DNA from: Naegleria gruberi
Taxonomy: Eukaryota
Length of the DNA stretch: 64,000 nucleotides
Direction: 5' to 3' (one strand)
Assembly (NCBI GenBank): GCA_000004985.1
Contig: GG738856.1
The notes beneath the pieces were generated by a model. That model made no database searches. It was not told the origin of the DNA and worked only from the letters and a program-made list of their open reading frames with translations. The translations under genes and the position numbers were made by a program. This document shows, in pieces, positions 15,484 through 54,937 of this stretch (its first letter is position 1; the number at the start of each line of letters is the position of its first letter).

Positions 15484-18400
15484 NNNNNNNNNNNNNNNNN
15501 NNNNNNNNNNNNNNNNNNNNNNNNNNNNNNNNNNNNNNNNNNNNNNNNNNNNNNNNNNNNNNNNNNNNNNNNNNNNNNNNNNNNNNNNNNNNNNNNNNNN
15601 NNNNNNNNNNNNNNNNNNNNNNNNNNNNNNNNNNNNNNNNNNNNNNNNNNNNNNNNNNNNNNNNNNNNNNNNNNNNNNNNNNNNNNNNNNNNNNNNNNNN
15701 NNNNNNNNNNNNNNNNNNNNNNNNNNNNNNNNNNNNNNNNNNNNNNNNNNNNNNNNNNNNNNNNNNNNNNNNNNNNNNNNNNNNNNNNNNNNNNNNNNNN
15801 NNNNNNNNNNNNNNNNNNNNNNNNNNNNNNNNNNNNNNNNNNNNNNNNNNNNNNNNNNNNNNNNNNNNNNNNNNNNNNNNNNNNNNNNNNNNNNNNNNNN
15901 NNNNNNNNNNNNNNNNNNNNNNNNNNNNNNNNNNNNNNNNNNNNNNNNNNNNNNNNNNNNNNNNNNNNNNNNNNNNNNNNNNNNNNNNNNNNNNNNNNNN
16001 NNNNNNNNNNNNNNNNNNNNNNNNNNNNNNNNNNNNNNNNNNNNNNNNNNNNNNNNNNNNNNNNNNNNNNNNNNNNNNNNNNNNNNNNNNNNNNNNNNNN
16101 NNNNNNNNNNNNNNNNNNNNNNNNNNNNNNNNNNNNNNNNNNNNNNNNNNNNNNNNNNNNNNNNNNNNNNNNNNNNNNNNNNNNNNNNNNNNNNNNNNNN
16201 NNNNNNNNNNNNNNNNNNNNNNNNNNNNNNNNNNNNNNNNNNNNNNNNNNNNNNNNNNNNNNNNNNNNNNNNNNNNNNNNNNNNNNNNNNNNNNNNNNNN
16301 NNNNNNNNNNNNNNNNNNNNNNNNNNNNNNNNNNNNNNNNNNNNNNNNNNNNNNNNNNNNNNNNNNNNNNNNNNNNNNNNNNNNNNNNNNNNNNNNNNNN
16401 NNNNNNNNNNNNNNNNNNNNNNNNNNNNNNNNNNNNNNNNNNNNNNNNNNNNNNNNNNNNNNNNNNNNNNNNNNNNNNNNNNNNNNNNNNNNNNNNNNNN
16501 NNNNNNNNNNNNNNNNNNNNNNNNNNNNNNNNNNNNNNNNNNNNNNNNNNNNNNNNNNNNNNNNNNNNNNNNNNNNNNNNNNNNNNNNNNNNNNNNNNNN
16601 NNNNNNNNNNNNNNNNNNNNNNNNNNNNNNNNNNNNNNNNNNNNNNNNNNNNNNNNNNNNNNNNNNNNNNNNNNNNNNNNNNNNNNNNNNNNNNNNNNNN
16701 NNNNNNNNNNNNNNNNNNNNNNNNNNNNNNNNNNNNNNNNNNNNNNNNNNNNNNNNNNNNNNNNNNNNNNNNNNNNNNNNNNNNNNNNNNNNNNNNNNNN
16801 NNNNNNNNNNNNNNNNNNNNNNNNNNNNNNNNNNNNNNNNNNNNNNNNNNNNNNNNNNNNNNNNNNNNNNNNNNNNNNNNNNNNNNNNNNNNNNNNNNNN
16901 NNNNNNNNNNNNNNNNNNNNNNNNNNNNNNNNNNNNNNNNNNNNNNNNNNNNNNNNNNNNNNNNNNNNNNNNNNNNNNNNNNNNNNNNNNNNNNNNNNNN
17001 NNNNNNNNNNNNNNNNNNNNNNNNNNNNNNNNNNNNNNNNNNNNNNNNNNNNNNNNNNNNNNNNNNNNNNNNNNNNNNNNNNNNNNNNNNNNNNNNNNNN
17101 NNNNNNNNNNNNNNNNNNNNNNNNNNNNNNNNNNNNNNNNNNNNNNNNNNNNNNNNNNNNNNNNNNNNNNNNNNNNNNNNNNNNNNNNNNNNNNNNNNNN
17201 NNNNNNNNNNNNNNNNNNNNNNNNNNNNNNNNNNNNNNNNNNNNNNNNNNNNNNNNNNNNNNNNNNNNNNNNNNNNNNNNNNNNNNNNNNNNNNNNNNNN
17301 NNNNNNNNNNNNNNNNNNNNNNNNNNNNNNNNNNNNNNNNNNNNNNNNNNNNNNNNNNNNNNNNNNNNNNNNNNNNNNNNNNNNNNNNNNNNNNNNNNNN
17401 NNNNNNNNNNNNNNNNNNNNNNNNNNNNNNNNNNNNNNNNNNNNNNNNNNNNNNNNNNNNNNNNNNNNNNNNNNNNNNNNNNNNNNNNNNNNNNNNNNNN
17501 NNNNNNNNNNNNNNNNNNNNNNNNNNNNNNNNNNNNNNNNNNNNNNNNNNNNNNNNNNNNNNNNNNNNNNNNNNNNNNNNNNNNNNNNNNNNNNNNNNNN
17601 NNNNNNNNNNNNNNNNNNNNNNNNNNNNNNNNNNNNNNNNNNNNNNNNNNNNNNNNNNNNNNNNNNNNNNNNNNNNNNNNNNNNNNNNNNNNNNNNNNNN
17701 NNNNNNNNNNNNNNNNNNNNNNNNNNNNNNNNNNNNNNNNNNNNNNNNNNNNNNNNNNNNNNNNNNNNNNNNNNNNNNNNNNNNNNNNNNNNNNNNNNNN
17801 NNNNNNNNNNNNNNNNNNNNNNNNNNNNNNNNNNNNNNNNNNNNNNNNNNNNNNNNNNNNNNNNNNNNNNNNNNNNNNNNNNNNNNNNNNNNNNNNNNNN
17901 NNNNNNNNNNNNNNNNNNNNNNNNNNNNNNNNNNNNNNNNNNNNNNNNNNNNNNNNNNNNNNNNNNNNNNNNNNNNNNNNNNNNNNNNNNNNNNNNNNNN
18001 NNNNNNNNNNNNNNNNNNNNNNNNNNNNNNNNNNNNNNNNNNNNNNNNNNNNNNNNNNNNNNNNNNNNNNNNNNNNNNNNNNNNNNNNNNNNNNNNNNNN
18101 NNNNNNNNNNNNNNNNNNNNNNNNNNNNNNNNNNNNNNNNNNNNNNNNNNNNNNNNNNNNNNNNNNNNNNNNNNNNNNNNNNNNNNNNNNNNNNNNNNNN
18201 NNNNNNNNNNNNNNNNNNNNNNNNNNNNNNNNNNNNNNNNNNNNNNNNNNNNNNNNNNNNNNNNNNNNNNNNNNNNNNNNNNNNNNNNNNNNNNNNNNNN
18301 NNNNNNNNNNNNNNNNNNNNNNNNNNNNNNNNNNNNNNNNNNNNNNNNNNNNNNNNNNNNNNNNNNNNNNNNNNNNNNNNNNNNNNNNNNNNNNNNNNNN

Positions 18401-19244
18401 NNNNNNNNNNNNNNNNNNNNNNNNNNNNNNNNNNNNNNNNNNNNNNNNNNNNNNNNNNNNNNNNNNNNNNNNNNNNNNNNNNNNNNNNNNNNNNNNNNNN
18501 NNNNNNNNNNNNNNNNNNNNNNNNNNNNNNNNNNNNNNNNNNNNNNNNNNNNNNNNNNNNNNNNNNNNNNNNNNNNNNNNNNNNNNNNNNNNNNNNNNNN
18601 NNNNNNNNNNNNNNNNNNNNNNNNNNNNNNNNNNNNNNNNNNNNNNNNNNNNNNNNNNNNNNNNNNNNNNNNNNNNNNNNNNNNNNNNNNNNNNNNNNNN
18701 NNNNNNNNNNNNNNNNNNNNNNNNNNNNNNNNNNNNNNNNNNNNNNNNNNNNNNNNNNNNNNNNNNNNNNNNNNNNNNNNNNNNNNNNNNNNNNNNNNNN
18801 NNNNNNNNNNNNNNNNNNNNNNNNNNNNNNNNNNNNNNNNNNNNNNNNNNNNNNNNNNNNNNNNNNNNNNNNNNNNNNNNNNNNNNNNNNNNNNNNNNNN
18901 NNNNNNNNNNNNNNNNNNNNNNNNNNNNNNNNNNNNNNNNNNNNNNNNNNNNNNNNNNNNNNNNNNNNNNNNNNNNNNNNNNNNNNNNNNNNNNNNNNNN
19001 NNNNNNNNNNNNNNNNNNNNNNNNNNNNNNNNNNNNNNNNNNNNNNNNNNNNNNNNNNNNNNNNNNNNNNNNNNNNNNNNNNNNNNNNNNNNNNNNNNNN
19101 NNNNNNNNNNNNNNNNNNNNNNNNNNNNNNNNNNNNNNNNNNNNNNNNNNNNNNNNNNNNNNNNNNNNNNNNNNNNNNNNNNNNNNNNNNNNNNNNNNNN
19201 NNNNNNNNNNNNNNNNNNNNNNNNNNNNNNNNNNNNNNNNNNNN
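15484..19244. other. Assembly gap (run of N, 3761 nt).
   Basis: Literal N characters. Track ORFs crossing this run (15424..19269, 15479..19249) are artefacts. Confidence 1.
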
Positions 19245-21064: not shown

Positions 21065-21947
21065 NNNNNNNNNNNNNNNNNNNNNNNNNNNNNNNNNNNN
21101 NNNNNNNNNNNNNNNNNNNNNNNNNNNNNNNNNNNNNNNNNNNNNNNNNNNNNNNNNNNNNNNNNNNNNNNNNNNNNNNNNNNNNNNNNNNNNNNNNNNN
21201 NNNNNNNNNNNNNNNNNNNNNNNNNNNNNNNNNNNNNNNNNNNNNNNNNNNNNNNNNNNNNNNNNNNNNNNNNNNNNNNNNNNNNNNNNNNNNNNNNNNN
21301 NNNNNNNNNNNNNNNNNNNNNNNNNNNNNNNNNNNNNNNNNNNNNNNNNNNNNNNNNNNNNNNNNNNNNNNNNNNNNNNNNNNNNNNNNNNNNNNNNNNN
21401 NNNNNNNNNNNNNNNNNNNNNNNNNNNNNNNNNNNNNNNNNNNNNNNNNNNNNNNNNNNNNNNNNNNNNNNNNNNNNNNNNNNNNNNNNNNNNNNNNNNN
21501 NNNNNNNNNNNNNNNNNNNNNNNNNNNNNNNNNNNNNNNNNNNNNNNNNNNNNNNNNNNNNNNNNNNNNNNNNNNNNNNNNNNNNNNNNNNNNNNNNNNN
21601 NNNNNNNNNNNNNNNNNNNNNNNNNNNNNNNNNNNNNNNNNNNNNNNNNNNNNNNNNNNNNNNNNNNNNNNNNNNNNNNNNNNNNNNNNNNNNNNNNNNN
21701 NNNNNNNNNNNNNNNNNNNNNNNNNNNNNNNNNNNNNNNNNNNNNNNNNNNNNNNNNNNNNNNNNNNNNNNNNNNNNNNNNNNNNNNNNNNNNNNNNNNN
21801 NNNNNNNNNNNNNNNNNNNNNNNNNNNNNNNNNNNNNNNNNNNNNNNNNNNNNNNNNNNNNNNNNNNNNNNNNNNNNNNNNNNNNNNNNNNNNNNNNNNN
21901 NNNNNNNNNNNNNNNNNNNNNNNNNNNNNNNNNNNNNNNNNNNNNNN
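21065..21947. other. Assembly gap (run of N, 883 nt).
   Basis: Literal N characters. Confidence 1.
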
Positions 21948-24747: not shown

Positions 24748-27700
24748 TTATTGTAAATTAAATGTAGTTGAAAGAGCTAATGTTTGTAAAAGATCAATTT
24801 GATTGGTAAGGTAAATATTTTGTGTAACACTTGCAATGTTAAATAAACATTGTTCCTTTTGATTGGATCTATCTTCTTGTATCATACCAATATAATCTGT
24901 ATCAGCTTCATAAACCGTCAATAAGGATTTAACCTTAACCATCATGTTAGTAATCTTTACAGTTGTATCTGAAACAGCTACACGATGTTCAAGTGTGTAA
25001 AGAGTTAAATGTTTAACTAGATCTAATAATTCTGTAATTTGAATATCCAATCTACATAATGCATCATAGGTTGATTTAATATTGGATGACTCGGTGAAAA
25101 TTGTTGAATTTCCTTCAACATGTGCTTCAAGATCTTCAAATTGTTTTCTCACACAAATATATCTATATAAAATATCACCTCCCTTACTCCAATTTGGAAT
25201 CAAATCTTGATGATTATAAAGCTTTTGAACATATTTAGAAAGTTCTTCATACTTGTTACAAAGTAAAAGATCAGATAGAATATATTCTAGGAAAACATTG
25301 TGAGCTTCAATATAATTATGATAAAGACACAAATTTTCAAATAATAAATGATAGGAACATGTATATCTAGCATAAAGAGCTGCAGCTTCATATATCCAAT
25401 TAGGAGAAATTTGTAATTGAGAGATGAATTTCATTCCTGATTCATTAGACATGAGAATAGGATAATTTCTAAAGAGAATTTCTCTGAGTGCTCTATTTCT
25501 AACATCAATGAGTCTTTCTCTCTTGAATTTAGAAACAAGACTATTTGATTTGTCTTGGTAATTCAATTCTCTATTAATATCATCTGAAATATTTGGCATT
25601 AAATCACAATGACACAATATAAACAAGGCATATTGTGGATACCCAGATTGTTCTAATTGAAGAGCATAATTACAAGTGATAATATGTGACATTGATCCAG
25701 TAGTATCACAACTTGTAACACGTCTCAATACATTATACAAATGCCATGTAAGTTGACAATCTAAAATATCATCAATATAAGTGGATGGTTCTAAAGATGA
25801 ACTTATTGGTATTTCTTTTTTACAATACATTCCTAAAATATGATACCTCAAATCATAATGTGTCTCTGATGAATGTCTAGATGATGATAAAAATGGTTTA
25901 GTGGCTCTAAAAGTTTCAAAATAATTTGTATAACTAGAGAAAACTTCACTAATTGTTGTATCTGGAGAACTCTTATACCACAAATGCAAACCCAAACATT
26001 GAAGCCATGTTAGAGAAGTATCACAAACATTACCTGCTAAGAGTTCATAAATTTTGATCAAATCCTTTTCAATATTAGCTTTTGCTTGTTTCCATAAATT
26101 AATTTGTTTTTGAATATCCTTTTGCATGAAAGGATTTGAGAAGGATTGAGAAATGATTGAAGAAAGTCTCACATCCTTATTATCGAGAGCAACTCTAGCA
26201 GCTTCTGCAATTCTTCCAGAAGATAACAACAAGTAAATTTTTTCCAATGGTTTTGGATTAGCTCTATTGATAATTTCATCAATTGGAATTTGTTCACGAA
26301 TCCAAGCACTCAAATTTCTCTTTCTAGCAATATCAGTTGCATAATTATTACCATCAAGCATATCAACATCACCAAAAAGTAAATTAGCAAGCTTCCATAC
26401 ACTCAACTCAAACTTTTCACGATTAACAATCAATTGTTTAGTAGCATCAGAGAAGTGATAATGATCAACTGAATTAATTATCTTTTCACATTTTTGAACG
26501 TGACCTTCCATTAATGCTGTATATGAATTATTCTTGAGAGAAATATGAACATCAGTAGGATCTCTTTCAACGTGTTCAATTTCCAAGTGAACCTTAGATT
26601 CATATTTGAGTTTAAGATATTCTTCATCTTGATTTTGTGGTACTTGCTTATCTTCTTTTACAAAGAACTCTGACACTGAAATATTGGAAACTTTTGATTT
26701 TGGATTAAATACAATAGTAGGTACAATAAATTGGCCATTAGGTAAAAATCCCACTCTAAATGATCGACTCAATGAAAACAATGAATCTCTCTTGTCAGAC
26801 TCTGCCTCTGCATCTCCAACAATATTTGATGGAGTACTGTCGATATACTTTCTTGGTTTGATTGTTGGTTGTTGGATTGGAGCATCCTTTTTAATAAATG
26901 CTAAAGTTGGTTCTGATTCAGAAATTTCCTTAAATCTTGGTTTCTTAGTTTGTCTAATAGCTTCAAAATCGATATTATTATCATCAGCAGCTTCATCATC
27001 AGTCATTAAATTTGCTTGCATAATGTACATTCTTCTTGGATCTAAATTAAGTTGTCTTGGAAGAAATGTTCTGTGACTTTCAATTTGCATAACATCTTCT
27101 CCTTCTTCCTCATCATTATCCATAACTTCTTCCTCATCAACAATTTCATCTGAATTGGTGCAGAATAGAGTTAATTATGTTAAAAAAGAAAGTTTAATTT
27201 GTTTCATTATTACAAATTAATATCTTACCTTCTGAAGTATCCGAAATTTCATCAAGATTGATTTTTTTCACAACTTGAAATGGTTCTTGTTTTTCCTCCT
27301 CATCTTCAATAATTTCTTCCTCTTCCTCGTCGTCAAAAATACCATACTTGGTAAAGTGTTCAACTTTGAATGTCCATTGTCCGGTTTCATAGTCAATAAA
27401 TCTACTACCAGACTTTTCATTGGCTTTTCTCAACTTTCTTTCAAATTGCTTGTAATCATTGTTCTTTGGATGGACATTGAACAATTTAATGATGGTTGGC
27501 TTATTGAGTTCAGTTCCAACTGGAGGTTTGGTCCTTTCTGTGTATACATTGCTACTATATACCTCCACATGATGAGTTTCAATCTCGTAAATAATTTTAT
27601 CCAAATCCAAATTCTTAGTCAAGTCAGTAACTCCAAGGAACTCAACTTCACCATATCCTTTTCTTCCTACAGTGAATCCATTACAATTTTGCAAGTCGTG

Positions 27701-30142
27701 TTGAGACATTTGCTTCATTTGTTCAAAGGATGGCTTGGTGTAATATCCTTCCTTTGTTAACTTTGGTAAATAGCTTGGTTTAACAGTTGTTTCCTTTGGT
27801 GCTTGTTCAATATCAAGAGAAATACCTTTACCCTTTTGAGGTTTTGGTCTAATAGCATTACTACTAATTGTTTTTTGAGAATCATCTCTTTCTATAGTTG
27901 TACCAGTAGATCTTGGTTGATTCAATTGTTGACTTGATCTCTTATCAAAAACAGCAGAAGAAATTGTCAATTCCTTAACATTTTCCTTAGAAGTAAATGA
28001 ATTACTATCAAGCAAGTCCAATGTTACAGGTTCTGTATCAGAAGCAATTAAAGACATTCTGTCAACCAATGTACTATTAGAGCTCTTTTTGAAAGTTCTT
28101 GGTCTAACTTGAGTTGATGTCTTTTGAATAGACTTTGAAATAACACTAGATTCTTCTTCTTGGGCATAGCTTTGCTCGAGTGCTTCCTTTTGAAGTTGGA
28201 AAAGAGGATTAGTACCAAATGGATCTGCCAAGAGATTATTAAGATCTTGGAGAGCCATTGGAGCAACACCATATCCGGTATTGGTTGGTTGAGCACCAAA
28301 ACCTGTTGTCATGCCAAGTCCAACACCAGTAGGTCCACCAAAATTGAAACCACTTGTTCCTCCAAGAGGTTGAGTAGTAGTGCCACCAAAATTGAAACCA
28401 GATGAACCAGTTGTGTTACCTCCAGTTGTACCAAAATTAAATCCACTACCAGTTGTAGTACCAGGTCCAGTTGCGCCCAATCCACCACCACCAAAGTTAA
28501 AACCAGTAGATGGTGCTGTAGTTGTTGTACCAGTTGTTGCACCAAATCCACTTGTACCAGTACCAAAATTAAATCCACTTGATGTTTGAGCTGGTTGTGT
28601 TGAGCCACCAAAATTGAAACCAGAACCAGTATTAGTTGCACCAGTTGTTGGTTGTGTTGAACCACCAAAATTGAAGCCAGAGCCTGTGGTTCCTGTATTA
28701 GTTGTTCCTCCTATAGGTGCAAGAGTTGTAGAACCACCTCCAAAGTTGAATCCTGAAGAAGGTTGAGAAGCACCAAATCCAGTGGTAGTGTTAGCTGTTC
28801 CTGTATTACTAGATCCAAATGCAAAACCAGTGTTTGCAGTTCCTGTTGTTGGTTGTGATCCAAAGCCTAATCCTCCAGTGGTTCCTGTTGTTGGTTGTGA
28901 TCCAAAACTAAAGCCAGTACTAGTTGTGGCAGGCTTATTACCGAATGCAGATGTTGTAGAACCGAATCCACCTGTAGTTGTATTACCAAATCCAGTGTTA
29001 GTAGTAGTACCAAATCCTGTTTGTGTGGTAGGTTGAGTTCCAAAACCAAAGCCAGTATTAGAAGCACCTCCCATAGTTCCTGTCGTTCCAAAACCAGTAT
29101 TTGTTGTTGTTGTTGTTGTTCCAGTATTTCCAAAAGAGAAACCTGTAGATGGTTGAGTTGTTTGTCCAAATCCTCCAGTTGTGGTACCAGTTGTTGGAGT
29201 AGAAAATGGATTTTGAGTTAATTTTCCTTGAGATGCAAGTGTGAAATACCATCTCCATTCTTCAAATGATTTATCCTTGTAAGGATCCATTTTAGTAATC
29301 GAATAGTATATCATCTTTGAATTTGTAGTAGTATTGTTTTCTTCAGTTGGCTTAAATGATGGGAAAGATTGTGGAGTAATTGGTCCACCAGTATTTCCCA
29401 TACCCATACCTGTGGTGTTAGTTGCTCCGAATCCCATTCCAGTATTTTGTGTTGGTTGAGCTCCAAATAAACCTCCACCAGTAGTGTTTTGTGTTGGTTG
29501 AGATCCAAATGAAAAGCCTGTACCTGTTGTTGGTTGAGTAGAACCAAATGTACCTGTTGTTGTTCCAGTAGTCCCACCAAATGGATTGGATGCACCAAAT
29601 GCACCTGTTGTTCCTGTACTTGGTTGAGAACCAAAACTAAATCCTGTGCCACCTGTTGTTGTGGTTGTTCCTGTTGATCCAAATGTATTTGTGGATGGTG
29701 CTCCAAATCCAGTGTTAGTTGCAGTGGTTCCACCAAAAGGATTACCAGATGCACCAAATGTATTACCTTGTTGTTGTGGTTGTTGTGGTTGTGTTTGTGT
29801 ATTACCAAAGCCAAAACCTGTATTTGTAGCTCCAGTTGTACCAAAAGGCTTATTTTGACCAAAAGCACCAGTTGTATTATTATTCATTCCACCAAAGCCA
29901 CCAGTATTTGTCGATGGTTGAGAACCAAAGCTAAATCCTGTATTTTGGGTTGTTCCTGTTGATCCAAAACCTCCACCACCAGTGTTTGGTTGTGCTCCAA
30001 ATCCACCACCTGTATTTCCACCAGTACCAAAAGAAAAACCAGTACCTCCTGTTGTTCCTGTTGATCCGAATCCACCACCACCAGTGTTTGGTTGTGCTCC
30101 AAATCCACCACCAGTATTAGTACCTCCACCAAAATTAAACAT
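24748..30142 (-). CDS. NUP98: Nup98-Nup96 nucleoporin precursor. Two exons, 30142..27229 and 27149..24748. It has N-terminal FG/GLFG repeats with a GLEBS motif, then the autoproteolytic domain, then the Nup96 alpha-solenoid.
   Basis: Start is 'MFNFGGGTNTGGGFGAQ' with dozens of FG/GFGxxxx units. GLEBS is 'SITKMDPYKDKSFEEWRWY'. The autoproteolytic domain ends 'FKVEHF|TKYG' (compare human 'KVSHF|SKYG'). The donor GAAG|GTAAGA at 27223-27228 and the CAG| acceptor at 27150-27152 join in frame to 'MDNDEEE...' (Nup96 region). Confidence 0.85.
27150..27228 (-). other. Spliceosomal intron (79 nt) of Nup98-96. It lies about 30 codons downstream of the HF|TKY self-cleavage site.
   Basis: GTAAGA donor and CAG acceptor, joining the track ORFs in frame. 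Confidence 0.6.
28222..30142 (-). repeat. FG/GLFG-repeat coding region (degenerate tandem units of about 30-36 nt).
   Basis: Repetitive 'ggtggatttggagcacaaccaaacactggt...' units. They produce many spurious antisense and off-frame ORFs in the track. Confidence 0.7.
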
Positions 30143-46512: not shown

Positions 46513-47445
46513 TTAATAATAGTAATCATCATCAGAACCATAATAAGGTGATTCAATCCTATCATGAGCAAATGTAGTCATGTAATAGAATTCATCACTG
46601 TCATAATAAGTGTTCATTGATGGTTTCCTAATGAGATAAGAACACACCAAACGGAAAGCATCATCACAAATATTAGAAAGTGGATGATCTTTAAGAATAG
46701 CATTGGAGCATTCTGATTTTCTACCATTTACTCGAATCAAGTAAGCAGGTTTGACGCACTCCCATGCCAATTTTTCTCTTCTCATTCTTGAATATTTCAA
46801 TAATTCATCTTTAACTTTCTCATTATCTTTCACTCTATTTGAAAGTCGAATATAATCAGCTGCGCTTAAACAAGTACACTTGCTGTGAAGTGCTTTGATT
46901 ATTTCAAGATTTGGATTTGTAGTGCATTGATTGAATAGATCATTGTAATCTATATCCTGAAATTTGATAGTTATCAAAATATTGAAAGCTTGAACATTGC
47001 CATAAATAACAGAATAGTAAAGTGCTCTTTTCCTATCATCTTCTCTCTCCACCCGTTCAAGTAACCATTGCATGATCTCACAATTTCCACTCTTTACAGA
47101 TTTTGTGAGCGGATCTTCCTTGCCACTATCAACAATGAACAATAAATCCTTATTCTTACACTTGCTGTAGAGAAACTTGACAGCATCAAAGTTTCCACTC
47201 TCACATGCAGCAAGGAATGGTGAAGTATTTCTATTATCTTTGGTTAATAATTGTGAACCTGCTGAGAATAAGCATTGAATAATGTAAAGACTCGTGTTTT
47301 TGAAACGACATGCATGAATGAGAGGTGTTGCTCCATTTGAAGTTTTCATACTCATTAACTTTCTATTGGTTGATAGAGAAAGCACTTCAGAATACTGATT
47401 CTTTTCAATACTATTAATTAAACTAGTGAATTGATCTGCTGACAT
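46513..47445 (-). CDS. Ankyrin-repeat protein (310 aa).
   Basis: Repeated 'G.TPL..A......V..LL..G' style units (GATPLIHACRF, TSPFLAACESGNFDAVKFLY). Confidence 0.5.
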   Translation of the reverse strand: MSADQFTSLINSIEKNQYSEVLSLSTNRKLMSMKTSNGATPLIHACRFKNTSLYIIQCLFSAGSQLLTKDNRNTSPFLAACESGNFDAVKFLYSKCKNKDLLFIVDSGKEDPLTKSVKSGNCEIMQWLLERVEREDDRKRALYYSVIYGNVQAFNILITIKFQDIDYNDLFNQCTTNPNLEIIKALHSKCTCLSAADYIRLSNRVKDNEKVKDELLKYSRMRREKLAWECVKPAYLIRVNGRKSECSNAILKDHPLSNICDDAFRLVCSYLIRKPSMNTYYDSDEFYYMTTFAHDRIESPYYGSDDDYYY

Positions 47446-47586
47446 TTTTTACAGTTCAATTTGTGAAAACTTTTCAGACTTCCTTTTTCCTTATTTATTC
47501 AATTTTGAGACTTCCCATCTCTACAAAAAAGAAACTTGCTAAATATACGGGTGATGAGTGTTTACGGTCAGCAAATACAGCTGATA

Positions 47587-50001
47587 TTATTGTAAATCCT
47601 TCTCTTGTTCAGAGTGGAGGGCACGAATGAAATCTTCTTTCAATATTTGTGAAACATCACTAATTAGAAAATTTTCTTTCGTCCTTAGTGATACTCGTGG
47701 AGCAATTATTGAGACTCGAGTGAGAAGAAATAAATTCAAACGTTCAATAACTTGCTCGACAGTGTCATTCTGTGATATGTCAATTAAAACAGAAACACGA
47801 GAACCTTCCAATTTGATTTTGATTGTATGAATTTGAATTTTCTCTGTGGAAACCTTGACTGGTGTTTGATGCTGCATAGGTGGTGAATCGTTATAATATA
47901 TCAAAGTCATCTCTAGAGGAGAAAAGTTGTCAGGATAGAGAGGTCTTAACTCAATAGGAAATTCAGGAGTTTTCATTTGGTTATTAAAAACTTGTCTAAT
48001 TCTGAAATATTCTTCATTGGCTTCACTTGCATATTTGTTCTGATTACATTTTAGAAAGTAAGAAATTCGCAGTTCGTGCGCAGGTTCAAAATTTGGTTCA
48101 CTTTGCAATACTCTATCAATGTAACCAAGTACCTTTTCAGTGTGTTTCAACTTTGCATGAATGGAAGCTATGAATATTAAAATTGTAGAATTATTGGAAT
48201 AGTTTTTCAATAATTGCTCAGCATACGAAAGACCATTCTCATATTCATTGAAAATAACTGATAATTGAGAGGCAATCATACTCAAAACATCTGATTCCTC
48301 AAAATGGTCCAGCATTTGCTTGAAAATTTTCTTGGCTTTTTCAATCTCTCCAATTTCAGCATAGTACTGAACTAAATAAACATAGATTACCAAGCAATTG
48401 GGTTCCAATTCTCTTGCTTTTAGAAAATCTGGGAATGCTTTAAGCTTTTCTTCTTTTGTTTTACCAACTTGATAAATAATTATTCCTCTTTTCAAGTAAT
48501 AATGAGCTAAATCATCTAAACTGTTCCCATATTTTTCCAATATTTTAGTGTATTCAGCAATAAGGATGAATGTTGAGCCCATTTGCTCCAAAATACCCAA
48601 TTTGGCATTAATGACAGGAATGGAGAAATGTGATTTCAAGGAATTATCCAAACATTGTAGAGCTTGCTTAGTGTTACCCTTGTAGAGATGTAAGAATCCC
48701 TTCAATTGCTCCAACACATGACCACTGTTCGGATCTTGGTGTGTATTGAATTTTCTTGAGAGAAATTCCAAAGACTCAAGCAGTGTTAATGCCTTGGAGA
48801 TGTTTGGTAACTTTCCTCCATAAACTCTCTCCCAAACATGTATATCATCTCTTGATAAAAACATGGCCAAAAGCAAGCCAACACAGTATTTGATTCTAAT
48901 TTCAACAGCATCATCAATAGATAATTTCATATAATATTTGTCAAGTATTTCTATTGAATCTTCAATACTATTGGCATTCAAATGAGAAAGTATTCTATTC
49001 ATTTCTAAAACTCCTGTAAATTCTCTATCACCTATTATTTGGAGATTGTTGCATATGATTAATCTAAGATTATTAATGGTTAATATTTCCATTGCATTCA
49101 ACGATGATAATCTCTCCTTCTTATCATATGTTAGAAAGGATAATAATAGTAGCTCAAAGAATTGGTCAACCTCCCTCGTAGAGATTTCATTGATGAATTT
49201 TGCTTGAAACACTTCACTCCATGTATTCTCAATGGTTGCTTGTGTATTTTCGAGTTTTAAATTTAGAAATCGAAAATCACATTCATCTACAATATCCTTA
49301 AAACTAATTGTTGACTCGGGGAAGAGTATTTTGAAAAGTACAACACCCATACTCCAGCAATCGACTTTGTAATCATAGAGTCTATGTTTAATTGATTCAG
49401 GTGGTAAATATTCAAATGTTCCCCTATGTGTTTTCTTGGTGTTTTCAGTTTGTAAGGTTTCTCCAAAATCAGCCAATGCAATCTCAATAAATGTTTCATT
49501 TTCTTCATCAAATGATTTGACAAGAATGTTTGAAAGTTTGATATCACAATGAACAAGATTATGTTTGTGTGAAATATTGACAGCAATACATAATTGTGTC
49601 ATGATTTGACCAATTAGAAAATCAGTCAATCTCTTTCCTCTTGATGTGAAATATCTTTCAATAAATGTTTCCAAATCTCCATACTTGTAAAATGGCATTA
49701 CAATCCCAATATTGGAATGATGATTAATGTATTCCAAACTCTCTACCAAATATTCACATACAATACTCTTTCTCAAATTAAATATCTTCAATTCCTTTTC
49801 AATAATGAATTCTCTTTCCTCTTCTTCTAATAAATTAATAATTTTCAATGCAATTTCATGGTTTGAACAACGATCAAAGCATCGATATACAACTCCGTAA
49901 CCTCCTTCTCCAATAAACAGCGGATTCAAAAACCTGTCACAAAAAGAAGAAGGGAATGCATAAGGTTGACGTGACATTTTTTTGTAATGTGACACTGTCA
50001 T
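47587..50001 (-). CDS. Protein kinase with a C-terminal TPR-like repeat region and a small beta-grasp-like tail. Paralogue A. The true start is probably the second ATG at 49977.
   Basis: 'IGEGGYGVVYRC', 'HCDIKLSNILV' and 'DFGET' kinase subdomains. The downstream helical repeats are TPR-like. Alignment with the plus-strand paralogue favours 'MSRQPYAFPSSFC' as the N-terminus. Confidence 0.7.
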   Translation of the reverse strand: MTVSHYKKMSRQPYAFPSSFCDRFLNPLFIGEGGYGVVYRCFDRCSNHEIALKIINLLEEEEREFIIEKELKIFNLRKSIVCEYLVESLEYINHHSNIGIVMPFYKYGDLETFIERYFTSRGKRLTDFLIGQIMTQLCIAVNISHKHNLVHCDIKLSNILVKSFDEENETFIEIALADFGETLQTENTKKTHRGTFEYLPPESIKHRLYDYKVDCWSMGVVLFKILFPESTISFKDIVDECDFRFLNLKLENTQATIENTWSEVFQAKFINEISTREVDQFFELLLLSFLTYDKKERLSSLNAMEILTINNLRLIICNNLQIIGDREFTGVLEMNRILSHLNANSIEDSIEILDKYYMKLSIDDAVEIRIKYCVGLLLAMFLSRDDIHVWERVYGGKLPNISKALTLLESLEFLSRKFNTHQDPNSGHVLEQLKGFLHLYKGNTKQALQCLDNSLKSHFSIPVINAKLGILEQMGSTFILIAEYTKILEKYGNSLDDLAHYYLKRGIIIYQVGKTKEEKLKAFPDFLKARELEPNCLVIYVYLVQYYAEIGEIEKAKKIFKQMLDHFEESDVLSMIASQLSVIFNEYENGLSYAEQLLKNYSNNSTILIFIASIHAKLKHTEKVLGYIDRVLQSEPNFEPAHELRISYFLKCNQNKYASEANEEYFRIRQVFNNQMKTPEFPIELRPLYPDNFSPLEMTLIYYNDSPPMQHQTPVKVSTEKIQIHTIKIKLEGSRVSVLIDISQNDTVEQVIERLNLFLLTRVSIIAPRVSLRTKENFLISDVSQILKEDFIRALHSEQEKDLQ
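49445..49709 (-). repeat. Arm 1 of a ~265-bp inverted repeat inside the kinase domain of paralogue A. It is about 98% identical to arm 2.
   Basis: The reverse complement of 49456..49709 matches 50321..50575 with about 5 mismatches in 255 nt. The matching segment encodes GIVMPFYK(Y/F)GDLETFIERYFTSRGKRLTDFLIGQIMTQLCIAVN(I/L)SHKHNLVHCDIKLSNILVKSFDEENETFIEIALADFGET. Confidence 0.8.
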
Positions 50002-50032
50002 TCTGAAAAAGAATCCAAAAAAATCTGGTCAA
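49978..50032. promoter_or_regulatory. Inferred shared bidirectional promoter or overlapping 5' region. The start codons of the two head-to-head kinase paralogues are only 31-55 bp apart.
   Basis: Geometry only. No motif is claimed. Confidence 0.25.
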
Positions 50033-52519
50033 ATGATCAGTCAAACTCAACTTCCCTCATGTTTTGGCAGTCGTTTTTCCAATCCTACACCAGTTGGAAA
50101 AGGAGCATATGGCACCACCTACTCATGTATTGATACACAAAATGATGATCAACAAATAATTGCTTTAAAAGTGATGCAACCAAGTGAAGGGACTGGTGAT
50201 ATTGCACTTGTAGAGAGAGAAGAAGAAATTTTCACAGCCATGAAGAATGTTCAGTGTGAATATATTGCCAAGAGTATGGAATTTCTAAATTATTTCGAAA
50301 GTGATGGTAGTGGTGGTTACATTGGAATTGTAATGCCATTTTACAAGTTTGGAGATTTGGAAACATTTATTGAAAGATATTTCACATCAAGAGGAAAGAG
50401 ATTGACTGATTTTCTAATTGGTCAAATCATGACACAATTATGTATTGCTGTCAATTTATCACACAAACATAATCTTGTTCATTGTGATATCAAACTTTCA
50501 AACATTCTTGTCAAATCATTTGATGAAGAAAATGAAACATTTATTGAGATTGCATTGGCTGACTTTGGAGAAACCTTTCGAACTGATCACACAACCAATA
50601 CAGATAAAAAGGGAACAGATGACTACTTACCACCAGAGGCCTTTGATGGCAAGTACGGATTCAAGATTGATTGCTGTAGTATGGGTGTTGTCCTTTTCAA
50701 ATTGCTTTGTCCACCAACTGATGTATCTATTAGAAACTATTTGGGAGAATGTCAAACTAAATACAAACACAAACAGCGTAACATTTTCTTTAGCCATTAT
50801 TGGTCAAAGAAGTTGGCGAAATACATGTCTGGTATTGAATATCTCAAAGATCAACCATTACTACTTTCAATGGTGAATGGATTTCTAACTTACGACAAGG
50901 AAAGTAGACTCACCATATTGAATGCTCTCGATCTATGTTGCATGATTATTATGATGCACATACATGGACAGAATAATAGTGTAAACTTAGACAATTTGGA
51001 GAATCCTTCACCTGTTTTGATACTATATGATCAATTATCATTGATTTCAGATTTCAATAATGGTTCAATGGAATTGTTATCCAAATATTACAATGAAACG
51101 AAGCAAGGAAATAGTTTAGGTATTGCATACATGGTAGGATTAATCTTTTGTAGCAGTCTATTGAAAAGAGATTTCAGAATTTGGGAATTTCAATTTAATT
51201 TACAAACACCCATTACCGATACAGCAACATTGGACAAAATGATACAAGATCTTGATCAACTATCACTGAAAATTAAGACCAATGAGCCATACTTGGGCTT
51301 TATATTTGAACAATTACATGCCATTTCACTAATGAACAAGAAAATGCCTGAAAAATCTTTACAAAGATTGGAAAACTCTACAAATTCATTCTTCACATTG
51401 GCATGCCAAAAAAAAAAGTTACTACTTGTAGAATTATTGAATGGAATGACTTATTCGTTGGTAGATGAATATTCCAAGCTAATCAAACTTTATGGTGACA
51501 AGAGTATGCTCTCTGGATACTTTTATTACAAAAGGGGTGTAATGTTATTCACCCTTTCTAATGATCATCAAAATGGTATAGCTGACTTGATACATGCAAG
51601 GAATTTATCACCAAATAGTTTGGGATTATATGCAATTATGGTAAACTGCTTTTTAACTATTGGCAGTATTGAAAATGCAAAACAAGTGTTTGAGCAAATG
51701 TTGTTATTGTCTGAGCACTTTGAGATTAATAGGTTAAACTTTATTGCAATGTTTTTATCCAATTGTTTAGGTTATTTGGATAAAGCATTGGAATATGGTG
51801 AAAAACTTACTAGTCAAGAACTGTATAGCAAGGACCCTGTATTACTTCTCTTTTTATCCAGAATCTGTAGTAATAGAGGCGATAGCTCAATGGAATTGGG
51901 TTATATAGAAACGGCATTGGATATAGATCCACATTGTTATCAAGCTCACCAAATGAAAATCCTATTTTATAGAGCAGCTTTGGATTTCACAGCAGAAAAA
52001 GAAGCTTTGCTCAAGTATACAGCTCTGAAAAGGCAAAACCTTTTGCATACCTCTGAATTTCCCATTGAACTTTTACCACTATTACCAGATGGCTCACCTC
52101 TTCCAATATTATTACTAAATGAACCTGAAAAGGATGTTACAAGAATTAAGGAAATTACTTTTAAGGAAGCTGAGAAGACTGTTCAACAATTTGAAACCAT
52201 TCAACCATCACTAATGCAAGAACCTACCACAAATGATTCAATTCTTTCACCAGAAATCATCATGCAAATCAAAGTGAAATTCAAAGGGAAAAACAATGCT
52301 GTTTTCATTGATATTTTGAAAACAGATACAGACATTCGTCAAGTATTAGATCGCTTGAATAAGATTGGAAACGAAAAGAGTACAGCATATGTTAATAGAG
52401 TGGCATTTTCAATAGTGAAAGACGATGATTGTATTTTAATTACATCAATTCATCAATTATCTAAATATGATGAAGTAGTGGCTCTCACAAGTGATGAAGA
52501 AAAAGAGTTTTGGGCGTAA
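50033..52519 (+). CDS. Protein kinase with a C-terminal TPR-like repeat region. Paralogue B, transcribed divergently from A.
   Basis: ATG at 50033. Same architecture as paralogue A. Outside the conversion tract the two are clearly diverged. Confidence 0.7.
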   Translation: MISQTQLPSCFGSRFSNPTPVGKGAYGTTYSCIDTQNDDQQIIALKVMQPSEGTGDIALVEREEEIFTAMKNVQCEYIAKSMEFLNYFESDGSGGYIGIVMPFYKFGDLETFIERYFTSRGKRLTDFLIGQIMTQLCIAVNLSHKHNLVHCDIKLSNILVKSFDEENETFIEIALADFGETFRTDHTTNTDKKGTDDYLPPEAFDGKYGFKIDCCSMGVVLFKLLCPPTDVSIRNYLGECQTKYKHKQRNIFFSHYWSKKLAKYMSGIEYLKDQPLLLSMVNGFLTYDKESRLTILNALDLCCMIIMMHIHGQNNSVNLDNLENPSPVLILYDQLSLISDFNNGSMELLSKYYNETKQGNSLGIAYMVGLIFCSSLLKRDFRIWEFQFNLQTPITDTATLDKMIQDLDQLSLKIKTNEPYLGFIFEQLHAISLMNKKMPEKSLQRLENSTNSFFTLACQKKKLLLVELLNGMTYSLVDEYSKLIKLYGDKSMLSGYFYYKRGVMLFTLSNDHQNGIADLIHARNLSPNSLGLYAIMVNCFLTIGSIENAKQVFEQMLLLSEHFEINRLNFIAMFLSNCLGYLDKALEYGEKLTSQELYSKDPVLLLFLSRICSNRGDSSMELGYIETALDIDPHCYQAHQMKILFYRAALDFTAEKEALLKYTALKRQNLLHTSEFPIELLPLLPDGSPLPILLLNEPEKDVTRIKEITFKEAEKTVQQFETIQPSLMQEPTTNDSILSPEIIMQIKVKFKGKNNAVFIDILKTDTDIRQVLDRLNKIGNEKSTAYVNRVAFSIVKDDDCILITSIHQLSKYDEVVALTSDEEKEFWA
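50319..50587 (+). repeat. Arm 2 of the inverted repeat (see 49445..49709).
   Basis: Both copies carry the same off-frame track ORF, 'MLSI(F/Y)HTNIILFIVISNFQTFLSNHLMKKMKHLLRLHW', confirming near identity at nucleotide level. Confidence 0.8.
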
Positions 52520-52585
52520 AGTTCTAGAAATGTTGGCAAATCTGAATTGTTGTTGTTCAGGAATTTTATTAATAAAGGGATATAA

Positions 52586-54937
52586 ATGGATAGAATTATC
52601 AAAACATCAAACACACAACATTATGTAATTATTGAAATTATTAAAAAAATGAAAAGAACTTTGGATGAGAATTCTGATAGCGAAACTGACGGCGAAAATA
52701 ATCCAAGAAAAAAATCTTCATCTTGCAATACTTCTTCCTACTTGGCAACAGATGCCAAGTTGTGTTATCCGTTCGGAGTGTTTGTTTCTCCCACTAACGA
52801 AATTTACATAGCCGATCAATATAATCATAGAGTGAGAAAGATATTAGAAAGTGGACGAATTGTTACAATAGCAGGAAATGGAAAAGGAGGGTTTAGTGGA
52901 GATGATGGATTGGCTACTAATGCACAGCTAAATTGCCCATCAAGTGTTTTTGTTTCTAATAAGAATGAAGTATTCATTGCTGACCAATACAATCATCGAA
53001 TTAGGAAGATATTAGAAAGTGGACGAATTGTGACAATAGCTGGAAACGGAGAGGAGGGATTTAGTGGAGATAATGGACCAGCTACAAGTGCCAGATTGAA
53101 TTGTCCTATGAGTATATTTGTTTCCAATATGAATGAAGTTTATTTTGTAGATTCGAACAATAATAGAGTCAGAAAAATATTGGAAAATGGAATTATTGTA
53201 ACAATAGCTGGAAATGAAGAGCTAGGATTTTCTGGTGACAGTATTCTTGCAACAAATGCAAAACTAAATGGACCTGTGAGTCTTCATGTTTCAGATAAGA
53301 ATGAAGTTTATTTTGCCGAGCTCAAAAACAACAAAATTAGAAAAATATTAAGAAATGGATTTCTTGAAACAGTAATGGGTGATGGATTCAGTACTACTTC
53401 TGTAAAAGTACAAAGTCCAACAAGTGTTTTTGTTTCTCCACAGAATGAAATTTATTTCTCTGATAATACCAGTAATAGAATTAGAAAAATATTGGAAAAT
53501 GGAAATGTTGTAACTGTTGCAGGAACTGGACAACAAGGATTCAGTGGTGATGGTGGACCTGCAACGAGAGCTCAACTTGCATGCCCTACAGGTCTATTTG
53601 TAACTTTGAATAATGAAATTTATTTTGCAGATTCTGCCAATAATAGAATTAGAAAGGTTTTGGAAAATGGAAATATTGTAACAATAGCAGGAAATGGAAA
53701 ACATGGATATAGTGGTGATGCACCATTTGATTTTTCATTGCATCCTCATATTGGAAGTACTAATTTGGAAAAACAAGAAACTGTGTTATTACAACGAGAC
53801 ATTTATTTCCCAAAGATTAAATTGAAAAAGTATAACAGAGATAGATTGTTTGGATTGGATATTTATGGATTTATGCCACTATTGGAAAATTTTTCACCTG
53901 AATTTAGCAAAACAGTGTTGAGAAATGAAAAACTCCTTTGTGAAATGGATTCTTCTCAACGAGAAATTGTACAAAAACTTATTGACTCTATGATTTATAA
54001 TGATGATAAGATGAATTTCAATGAAGAGTATACAGTCAATGTTTTGTATATTTTGGGATTCTTTAAAAATGCTGAATTTCTTGATTTGAAACAAGACATG
54101 GTTACCAAGTTTATCAATTCTCTTTCCTTGACATCTCTATCTTCTGTATGGGAGAAAGTTGAAGAATTATTGAAAATATGTGAAAATCTTGGACTTTCAA
54201 ACTTTATCCTTGAGAAGTTGAACAAATATTGCACAGAATATACTGCTGTTCAATTGAAATCTCCAGAAGGAAGCAAAATACTTTCAAATATTTCTATAAT
54301 ATTAAGGAACAGCGTCAGGATTTTCCCTTTAATGGCAATTTCAGAACCAAGTCCTATTATCATTGATGAAATTGTTGAAAAATTTCAGCAAGGAGTTAAT
54401 AGTTTATATAATGATAAGGGAACATATGATTTTCGTGTCAAATTGAGTGAAGATGAGTTTTTATATTGCCACAAAACTATATTAAGCTCTTCTAGCTCAA
54501 TATTCGAGACATTTTTTCAGAATCAAGAAATTGACAATATTAAAGATGGTTTCATGGTTCCAGATCCATCAGAAAATGTCGATTTGGTGAAGATTATAAT
54601 CCAAGCATGCTATAGATGTGGAAATATTGAGTTTAATTCCAATCAAAACATGTCCCTCCTCTCAACAGCAATGAAACATGAAATGAAATACCTTATCGAT
54701 TGTTGGTTGAAGAATTTTAAGATCAGTGTCGATAATTATTTCGAGGTAGTGTCTGTCTGTAAAAATTACTTACATTTACCATGTTGTGAAGAATTTTATC
54801 AACTATTACTAATGTTTGGATCAGTTTATCGTGCTAAGCTTTTCACTGATTGTGATAGAGTAGCATTGCTTCCTGATCAACTATTGAGAGCGTTACTAGT
54901 TCAGATTTCTAGTGATGGATTTATCTTTAATAGATGA
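52586..54937 (+). CDS. NHL-repeat beta-propeller protein with a C-terminal BTB/POZ-like domain.
   Basis: At least 7 repeats of 'P.GVFVS..NEIYIAD..NHRIRKIL..G.IVTIAGNG..GFSGDGGPAT.A.L'. C-terminal 'FRVKLSEDEFLYCHKTILSSSSSIFETFFQ' is BTB-like. Confidence 0.65.
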   Translation: MDRIIKTSNTQHYVIIEIIKKMKRTLDENSDSETDGENNPRKKSSSCNTSSYLATDAKLCYPFGVFVSPTNEIYIADQYNHRVRKILESGRIVTIAGNGKGGFSGDDGLATNAQLNCPSSVFVSNKNEVFIADQYNHRIRKILESGRIVTIAGNGEEGFSGDNGPATSARLNCPMSIFVSNMNEVYFVDSNNNRVRKILENGIIVTIAGNEELGFSGDSILATNAKLNGPVSLHVSDKNEVYFAELKNNKIRKILRNGFLETVMGDGFSTTSVKVQSPTSVFVSPQNEIYFSDNTSNRIRKILENGNVVTVAGTGQQGFSGDGGPATRAQLACPTGLFVTLNNEIYFADSANNRIRKVLENGNIVTIAGNGKHGYSGDAPFDFSLHPHIGSTNLEKQETVLLQRDIYFPKIKLKKYNRDRLFGLDIYGFMPLLENFSPEFSKTVLRNEKLLCEMDSSQREIVQKLIDSMIYNDDKMNFNEEYTVNVLYILGFFKNAEFLDLKQDMVTKFINSLSLTSLSSVWEKVEELLKICENLGLSNFILEKLNKYCTEYTAVQLKSPEGSKILSNISIILRNSVRIFPLMAISEPSPIIIDEIVEKFQQGVNSLYNDKGTYDFRVKLSEDEFLYCHKTILSSSSSIFETFFQNQEIDNIKDGFMVPDPSENVDLVKIIIQACYRCGNIEFNSNQNMSLLSTAMKHEMKYLIDCWLKNFKISVDNYFEVVSVCKNYLHLPCCEEFYQLLLMFGSVYRAKLFTDCDRVALLPDQLLRALLVQISSDGFIFNR

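What the first reader, a model, noticed from the sequence alone, without database searches (positions are those of the whole stretch)
49445..50587. Head-to-head kinase/TPR paralogues share a ~265-bp near-identical inverted tract, indicating recent gene conversion
The two divergently transcribed kinase genes are otherwise well diverged at protein and DNA level. A roughly 255-bp stretch in the kinase core (codons for GIVMPFYK...ADFGET) is about 98% identical between 49456..49709 (reverse complement) and 50321..50575, synonymous sites included. The track even shows the same spurious off-frame ORF in both copies. This is the signature of intra-locus gene conversion between inverted paralogues. The arms form a large inverted repeat with a ~600-bp spacer centred on the shared promoter, which could also promote inversion or hairpin formation.
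Basis: seen in the sequence. Interest (0 to 1): 0.6.

Follow-up and report, generated by a model that had tools for sequence, protein, structure and literature searches.

The report
Gene-conversion patch between two neighbouring kinase genes
Two old, back-to-back duplicate kinase genes of the amoeba Naegleria gruberi share a 257-base stretch that is 98% identical because one copy overwrote the other by recombination; this is a clear but ordinary case of a well-known process.

Summary
Window 49454-49710 (reverse complement) and 50321-50577 are 252/257 identical (98.1%). They sit in frame at homologous codons of two divergently transcribed kinase/TPR genes, A at 47587-50001(-) and B at 50033-52519(+). 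Elsewhere the two genes are about 50% identical in DNA and 34% in protein. Synonymous divergence is 0.049 inside the tract and saturated (about 2) outside. The longest exact match outside the tract is 14 nt. The window is Naegleria gruberi nuclear DNA. The only other family members found, one gene each in N. lovaniensis and N. fowleri, are single-copy. Their version of the same segment shows no extra synonymous conservation, so a nucleotide-level functional element is unlikely. No Rfam family matches, and no third copy turned up in the window or among database proteins. The tract runs from the kinase hinge to the DFG motif. Its 5' edge abuts a 6-codon indel and its 3' edge abuts the divergent activation loop. 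Best explanation: interlocus gene conversion between adjacent inverted paralogues. Because today's flanks have no usable homology, this is probably the last surviving island of long-running concerted evolution. Inversion and hairpin formation are physically possible but untested. This is a new instance of a well-known phenomenon and of low interest.

The parts
47587..50001 (-). Gene A: 804-aa protein kinase (CAMK-like) with a TPR-like region and a conserved C-terminal domain
   Evidence: ORF. Pkinase PF00069 E = 4.7e-40 plus TPR_19/TPR_14. 100% identical to 'predicted protein [Naegleria gruberi]' P0001.
50033..52519 (+). Gene B: 828-aa paralogue of A, transcribed divergently. The public model P0002 (781 aa) starts at Met48.
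   Evidence: ORF. Pkinase E = 6.5e-30. P0002 sequence. 34% aa identity to A outside the tract.
49454..49710 (-). Conversion tract, arm in gene A (codons 98-183, IGIVMPFYKYGD...ADFGET)
   Evidence: 252/257 identical to the arm in B; dS 0.049; kinase beta5/hinge through catalytic loop HCD to DFG.
50321..50577 (+). Conversion tract, arm in gene B (codons 97-182)
   Evidence: Same as for the A arm.
49711..50320 (.). 610-nt spacer between the arms. It holds the divergent N-terminal coding parts of both genes (97 and 96 codons) and the 31-nt gap between the start codons (50002-50032).
   Evidence: N-terminal parts are 36% aa identical and pS is 0.82.
50303..50320 (+). B-specific 6-codon insertion (SDGSGG-type) directly at the 5' edge of the tract; a likely barrier to heteroduplex extension
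   Evidence: Pairwise and 4-way alignments. Identity drops abruptly here.
49424..49453 (-). 3' fringe of the tract in A (partner 50578-50607 in B): about 69% identity, decaying into the divergent activation loop, which has a 1-codon indel 11 codons further on
   Evidence: Mismatch list; shoulder analysis.

Best explanation
The tract results from interlocus (ectopic, non-allelic) gene conversion between two adjacent, head-to-head paralogous kinase genes of Naegleria gruberi. The genes arose by an old inverted duplication on the N. gruberi branch and have diverged to saturation at synonymous sites. One 257-nt segment, encoding the kinase core from the hinge to the DFG motif, has been copied non-reciprocally from one gene into the homologous position of the other by homologous recombination. 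The likely route is strand invasion or heteroduplex formation followed by synthesis or mismatch repair, within one chromatid or between sisters. Five substitutions have accumulated since the last event. The flanks today offer no homology for strand invasion, so the segment is most likely the shrinking remnant of continuous homogenisation since the duplication. It is bounded 5' by an indel and 3' by the fast-evolving activation loop, both of which would stop heteroduplex spread. Shown here: the identity pattern, its significance, its boundaries, the age contrast, single-copy orthologues elsewhere, and the lack of nucleotide-level constraint in those orthologues. Inferred: the recombination mechanism, the repeated nature of the conversion, and the role of the indels as barriers. 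The direction of transfer is unknown.
For: Identity is 252/257 in register and in frame. dS is 0.049 inside versus about 2.1 outside; 79/81 versus 104/228 identical codons at identical residues, P = 1.4e-19. The perfect run of 106 nt compares with a maximum of 31 in 5000 shuffles. It is the only long non-tandem repeat in the window. The N. lovaniensis and N. fowleri orthologues are single-copy at their loci and in the databases. In that pair the tract segment is 73% nt and 58% third-position identical, the same as its flanks (70% and 55%), so the segment is not intrinsically frozen. In the tract, A-B protein identity is 97% versus 42-58% to the orthologues, while outside it is 34% versus 28-30%. 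No Rfam family matches. The longest exact match outside the tract is 14 nt. Naegleria genomes encode RAD51, DMC1, MSH2/6, MLH1 and PMS1-2 (PMC9928731). Conversion between adjacent inverted paralogues is well documented, for example C. elegans hsp16 and hsp70 pairs (PMC3966223).
Against: There is no independent assembly, read set or sister-strain sequence to confirm the two arms or to show species-specific homogenisation. The metagenome and viral scans gave only distant kinases, and gene A is not in the contig index. Tract GC3 (0.21) is not raised over the rest of the genes (0.29), so there is no GC-biased conversion footprint, though the sample is small and the bias is not universal. The erosion model has only weak support: the 3' shoulder is explained by ordinary motif conservation, except perhaps for its first 17 or so codons. 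Donor and recipient cannot be told apart.
Confidence: 0.88

Rival explanations
1. A single recent, non-canonical copying event. For example, replication template switching between the inverted arms (quasi-palindrome correction) or microhomology-primed synthesis, rather than long-running homologous conversion.
For: The arms are inverted and only 610 nt apart, the geometry that favours intramolecular template switching, and they pair in a single-strand fold. The flanks have no homology today. The 5' boundary is very sharp.
Against: The replacement is exactly in register, with no junction scars, indels or filler at either end. Template switching over 257 nt between arms expected to be only about 65% identical has little precedent (that is the A to N. 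fowleri level in this segment). The outcome cannot be distinguished from conversion with these data.
Confidence: 0.2
2. Assembly or consensus artefact: reads from the two arms were mixed, or a chimeric clone produced the mosaic.
For: The window comes from a scaffolded draft with N runs at 15484-19244 and 21065-21947. No second assembly of this strain was available.
Against: The assembly is Sanger-based (PMC9928731 Table 1). A 257-nt arm is shorter than a read, so reads anchor in unique flanks on both sides (inference). The arms still differ at 5 sites, so they were not collapsed. Both junctions are in frame and both ORFs are intact. Mixing could only happen if the arms were already near-identical. 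The N runs lie more than 27 kb away.
Confidence: 0.03
3. Selection at the nucleotide level keeps the two segments identical, for example an embedded RNA element, a regulatory site or extreme codon constraint.
For: The segment is the most conserved part of the protein (58% aa identity to N. fowleri versus about 30% elsewhere).
Against: In N. lovaniensis versus N. fowleri, third-position identity in this segment (58%) equals that of the flanks (55%). Rfam gives no match at E <= 1. N. gruberi to N. fowleri third-position identity in the tract is only 52%.
Confidence: 0.02
4. Both genes were converted by a third, unseen paralogue elsewhere in the genome.
For: Only 64 kb of the genome could be read directly.
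Against: A search of 5.8 billion proteins with gene A returned only A and B carrying this segment; the next hit is 30% identical. The exhaustive profile search found only A, B and the N. lovaniensis gene. There is no third copy in the window.
Confidence: 0.03

Closest known systems
Interlocus gene conversion between adjacent inverted paralogues (e.g. C. elegans hsp16-1/hsp16-48 head-to-head modules and hsp70-7/hsp70-8; reviewed in PMC3966223)
   Same: Neighbouring duplicates in opposite orientation. A stretch of near-identity that includes silent sites lies between diverged flanks. It is detected by the GENECONV-type logic of unexpectedly long identical runs.
   Different: Here the flanks are saturated (dS about 2) and the tract covers only 257 nt, about 11% of each gene, rather than most of the coding region. 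The organism is a heterolobosean amoeba. No other case in Naegleria turned up in the literature searches, apart from the alpha-tubulin family, whose abstract discusses concerted evolution (PMC2115128).
Arm-to-arm gene conversion in genomic palindromes (e.g. human Y-chromosome ampliconic palindromes; from general knowledge, not tested here)
   Same: Inverted arms with a short spacer are kept near-identical by intrachromosomal conversion. Crossover between the arms would invert the spacer.
   Different: Those arms are kilobases to megabases long and include whole genes. Here the arm is a 257-nt internal coding segment, and the rest of the former palindrome has decayed.
Escape from concerted evolution / mosaic paralogues (the theoretical framework of duplicated genes diverging once conversion stops; from general knowledge)
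   Same: A pattern of old, diverged regions alongside a still-homogenised block bounded by indels.
   Different: The history is inferred from one genome only. No population or sister-species data show the progressive shrinkage.

Membership tests
Interlocus (ectopic) gene-conversion tract | A segment with identity significantly higher than the flanking paralogous sequence | tested here: met
   98.1% versus 50% nt identity. The 106-nt perfect run compares with a maximum of 31 in 5000 shuffles; binomial P = 6e-68.
Interlocus (ectopic) gene-conversion tract | The excess identity extends to synonymous sites, so protein-level selection cannot explain it | tested here: met
   dS 0.049 versus about 2.1; 79/81 versus 104/228 identical codons at identical residues.
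Interlocus (ectopic) gene-conversion tract | The exchange is at the homologous position, in register, without junction indels | tested here: met
   The ungapped alignment runs in frame from the Ile codon of IGIVMPFYK in both genes.
Interlocus (ectopic) gene-conversion tract | Incongruent history: paralogues group together in the tract but are old elsewhere, judged against orthologues | tested here: met
   In the tract, A-B identity is 97% aa versus 42-58% to the N. lovaniensis and N. fowleri genes. Outside, it is 34% versus 28-30%. The orthologue pair shows no special silent-site conservation in the segment.
Interlocus (ectopic) gene-conversion tract | Non-reciprocal transfer with an identifiable donor and recipient | not testable with these tools
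   Only one orthologue per outgroup species exists, and no sister strains carrying both genes were found.
Interlocus (ectopic) gene-conversion tract | Both copies verified in the physical genome (not an assembly artefact) | not testable with these tools
   No reads and no second assembly were available. The gene is not in the contig index.
Eukaryotic protein kinase (Pfam PF00069), CAMK-like | Pkinase profile above the gathering score, with catalytic motifs present (VAIK Lys, HxD catalytic loop, DFG) | tested here: met
   138 and 105 bits against a cut-off of 31.7. IALK, HCDIKLSN and DFG are present in both. The best solved relatives are CDPK, ULK3 and DCLK1 kinases. Activity itself was not tested.
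Programmed invertible DNA segment (flip-flop switch) | Inverted repeats flanking a promoter-bearing segment | tested here: met
   257-nt arms flank the 610-nt spacer that holds both gene starts.
Programmed invertible DNA segment (flip-flop switch) | A dedicated recombinase encoded nearby, and both orientations observed in a population | tested here: not met
   The recombinase half was tested and not met. The neighbouring genes are an ankyrin-repeat protein, a small protein with no Pfam match, and an NHL/BTB protein. The other half, both orientations, could not be tested because only one assembly was available.

The most novel reading that the evidence does not exclude
The in-frame inverted tract may act as a recombination hinge. 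A crossover within it would invert the 610-nt spacer and swap promoter plus kinase N-lobe (residues 1-97 and 1-96) between the two gene bodies without breaking either reading frame. The locus could then exist in two isomers encoding alternative chimeric kinases. Alternatively, a transcript reading through both arms would form a 257-bp hairpin and feed RNAi against both genes. In either case the identity of the tract could be maintained because of that function, not just by chance conversion.
Probability: 0.06. Interest if true: 0.6.

Novelty: new member of a known kind. Interest (0 to 1): 0.25.

Why it matters
It is a clean, statistically clear example of ectopic gene conversion in a heterolobosean amoeba. 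That adds indirect evidence that homologous recombination acts on the Naegleria nuclear genome. In practice it is mainly a warning. Trees or dS-based dating of these two kinases, or of Naegleria kinome expansions in general, will be misled if the tract is included. The public gene model for one of the pair is also truncated. It opens no new question and changes no current view of recombination.

Tried and rejected
- The viral-contig scan with gene A found no relatives, so a giant-virus origin was dropped.
- The metagenome scan gave only distant kinases (37% identity or less). No sister-species copies were available for dating or polarity.
- Exact look-up of gene A in the contig index found nothing on record, so no second assembly could be checked.
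- The Rfam scan of 47000-53000 at E <= 1 gave no match.
- GC3 in the tract is 0.21 versus 0.29 in the rest of the genes, so there is no GC-biased conversion footprint.
- I considered the idea of a wider, older conversion 'shoulder', suggested by the 384-nt blastn hit at 88%. I rejected it for most of its length because A-B identity there matches A-to-N. fowleri identity.
- I tried to infer donor polarity from outgroup agreement. Outside the tract the counts are balanced (56 versus 45), and inside only 2 sites are informative.
- Literature searches for gene conversion or concerted evolution in Naegleria found only the 1988 alpha-tubulin paper and a meiosis/repair gene inventory. Nothing covers this locus.

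Full report
**What is there**

Two long ORFs face away from each other. Gene A is 47587-50001(-), 804 aa, and gene B is 50033-52519(+), 828 aa. Their start codons are 31 nt apart.

Both proteins have an N-terminal protein-kinase domain (Pfam Pkinase, 138 and 105 bits). This is followed by a TPR-like helical region, which reaches Pfam significance only in A, and a conserved C-terminal segment.

Gene A is 100% identical to a 'predicted protein' of Naegleria gruberi on a 602-kb scaffold. Gene B matches the N. gruberi 'serine/threonine protein kinase' P0002. The rest of the window carries ordinary eukaryotic nuclear genes (TFIIS, Nup98-96, a PAS-adenylate cyclase, an inositol-phosphatase-type protein) at about 32% G+C. 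The window is therefore N. gruberi nuclear DNA.

**The observation**

The repeat finder reports one long inverted repeat, 49425-49710 with 50321-50606 (286 nt, 95%, 610 nt apart). A self-BLAST shows it is the only long non-tandem repeat in the 64 kb.

Base by base, the near-identical core is 49454-49710 (reverse complement) against 50321-50577. That is 257 nt with 5 mismatches (98.1%), and perfect runs of 106 and 104 nt. It is in frame and in register, from the Ile codon of IGIVMPFYK to three codons past DFG.

The rest of the two genes aligns at 50% nucleotide and 38% third-position identity, against 98% and 96% in the tract.

- Nei-Gojobori dS is 0.049 inside and about 2.1 (saturated) outside.
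- Where the amino acid is the same, the codon is the same in 79/81 cases inside and 104/228 outside (P = 1.4e-19).
- No shuffle of codon columns out of 5000 gave a perfect run longer than 31 nt.

The 'same spurious ORF in both copies' is also real and is a trivial consequence of the identity.

**Boundaries**

The 5' edge is abrupt and coincides with a 6-codon insertion in B (50303-50320). On the 3' side, identity decays over about 30 nt into the activation loop. That loop differs strongly between the genes and has a 1-codon indel 11 codons further on.

The blastn extension to 384 nt at 88% suggested a wider shoulder. However, in codons 184-228, A-B nucleotide identity (0.69) is about the same as A versus the N. 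fowleri orthologue (0.64). This is normal conservation of the APE and DxWSxG motifs, not conversion. Only the first 17 or so codons look slightly elevated at third positions.

Against solved kinases (CDPK, ULK3, DCLK1), the tract covers strand beta5 and the hinge, helices D and E, the catalytic loop (HCD instead of HRD) and the DFG motif.

**Relatives**

An exhaustive profile search used the non-kinase halves of A and B against 1.84 billion representative proteins. It found only A, B and one further true family member, an N. lovaniensis protein (P0121). All remaining hits were generic TPR matches. Searching with P0121 added one N. fowleri protein, P0269.

At their loci both are single genes with unrelated neighbours, and tblastn finds no second copy within 10 kb on either side.

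Outside the tract, A and B are 34% identical in protein, and 28-30% identical to the two orthologues. This fits an old duplication on the N. gruberi branch. A four-taxon set cannot root this firmly.

Inside the tract, A-B identity is 97%, while identity to the orthologues is only 42-58%.

The comparison that best discriminates is between N. lovaniensis and N. fowleri. In that pair the tract segment is 73% identical in DNA and 58% at third positions, the same as its kinase flanks (70% and 55%). So the segment carries no special nucleotide-level constraint in the genus. Rfam finds nothing in 47000-53000.

**How it most likely works**

The pattern meets the standard criteria for interlocus gene conversion:
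- a run of identity too long for the background divergence;
- identity that extends to silent sites;
- exchange at the homologous position without junction scars;
- incongruence with the history of the flanks.

Adjacent inverted paralogues are classic substrates, for example the C. elegans hsp16 and hsp70 pairs (PMC3966223). Naegleria genomes encode the recombination and mismatch-repair proteins needed (PMC9928731).

Outside the tract the longest exact match between the genes is 14 nt. Without conversion the tract itself would be expected to be only about 65% identical, the level seen between N. gruberi and N. fowleri. Homologous strand invasion between such sequences is very inefficient (established knowledge of homeologous recombination).

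The simplest reading is therefore that this segment has been homogenised repeatedly since the duplication and never diverged enough to stop recombining. The rest of the genes escaped, with the indel and the activation loop acting as barriers. This is inference. A one-off template-switch between the inverted arms is the main mechanistic rival. The direction of transfer cannot be determined: only two informative sites lie in the tract, and outgroup agreement outside it is balanced (56 versus 45). Tract GC3 is not elevated (0.21 versus 0.29), so there is no GC-biased conversion footprint.

**Other explanations**

An assembly artefact is unlikely. The NEG-M genome is a Sanger assembly (PMC9928731 Table 1), and the arms are shorter than a read. 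They retain five differences, join their divergent flanks in frame, and lie more than 27 kb from the nearest N run. I could not check reads, and the gene is not in the contig index.

A third-copy donor is unlikely, because no other protein in the databases carries the segment.

Inversion or hairpin formation is physically possible, since the arms pair over their whole length in a single-strand DNA fold. A crossover in the tract would swap promoter plus N-lobe between the genes without breaking either frame. Nothing here shows that this happens, and no recombinase gene is nearby.

**Verdict**

The phenomenon is well known, so this is a new, tidy instance in an amoeba for which little has been reported. 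Interest is low.

Its practical value is as a caution for phylogenies and dS dating of these kinases. It also flags that the public model of gene B omits the first 47 codons, including the glycine-rich loop and the catalytic lysine.

Noticed in passing
window 50033-50173: The public N. gruberi model for gene B (P0002, 781 aa) starts at Met48 of the 828-aa ORF. It therefore lacks the glycine-rich loop (GKGAYG) and the IALK lysine, both of which align with gene A and with the N. fowleri and N. lovaniensis orthologues. The longer ORF looks like the correct model.
   Followed up: partly
window 50002-50032: The start codons of the two divergent genes are only 31 nt apart. Promoter elements must therefore overlap the neighbouring coding sequence, or one of the true starts lies further in (gene A has a second Met at codon 9).
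   Followed up: no
window 15484-19244 and 21065-21947: There are two runs of N (3761 and 883 nt), either scaffold gaps or masked stretches. ORF callers report artefactual ORFs across them.
   Followed up: no
window 24748-30142 (-): A Nup98 autopeptidase ORF (27194-30142) and a Nup96 ORF (24748-27123) lie 70 nt apart on the same strand. They are probably one Nup98-96 precursor gene interrupted by a short intron.
   Followed up: no
window 52586-54937 (+): An NHL-repeat protein with a C-terminal BTB domain. Its NHL blades are encoded by 168-nt tandem units that are 63-74% identical (52742-53725).
   Followed up: no
L001 11303-11542 (N. lovaniensis PYSW02000017.1): The 240-nt intron annotated in the N. 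lovaniensis orthologue is read through in frame by tblastn with the N. gruberi and N. fowleri proteins. It may therefore be coding sequence wrongly removed from the model.
   Followed up: partly
window 49573-49575 / 50456-50458: One of the three amino-acid differences inside the tract (Ile versus Leu) is a double change within a single codon (ATT versus TTA), in an otherwise near-perfect stretch. It could be a multi-nucleotide mutation, a compensated indel pair, or a patch that escaped repair.
   Followed up: no
window 47587-47900 and 52200-52519; P0121 and P0269 C-termini: All four family members share a conserved C-terminal module of about 90 residues (IKIK..G....IDI...T..QV..RLN...RVS...I....QL......AL) and a FP(I/V)E(L/V)xPLxPDGSP motif. 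Neither has a Pfam match, so this is a Naegleria-specific domain of unknown fold.
   Followed up: no
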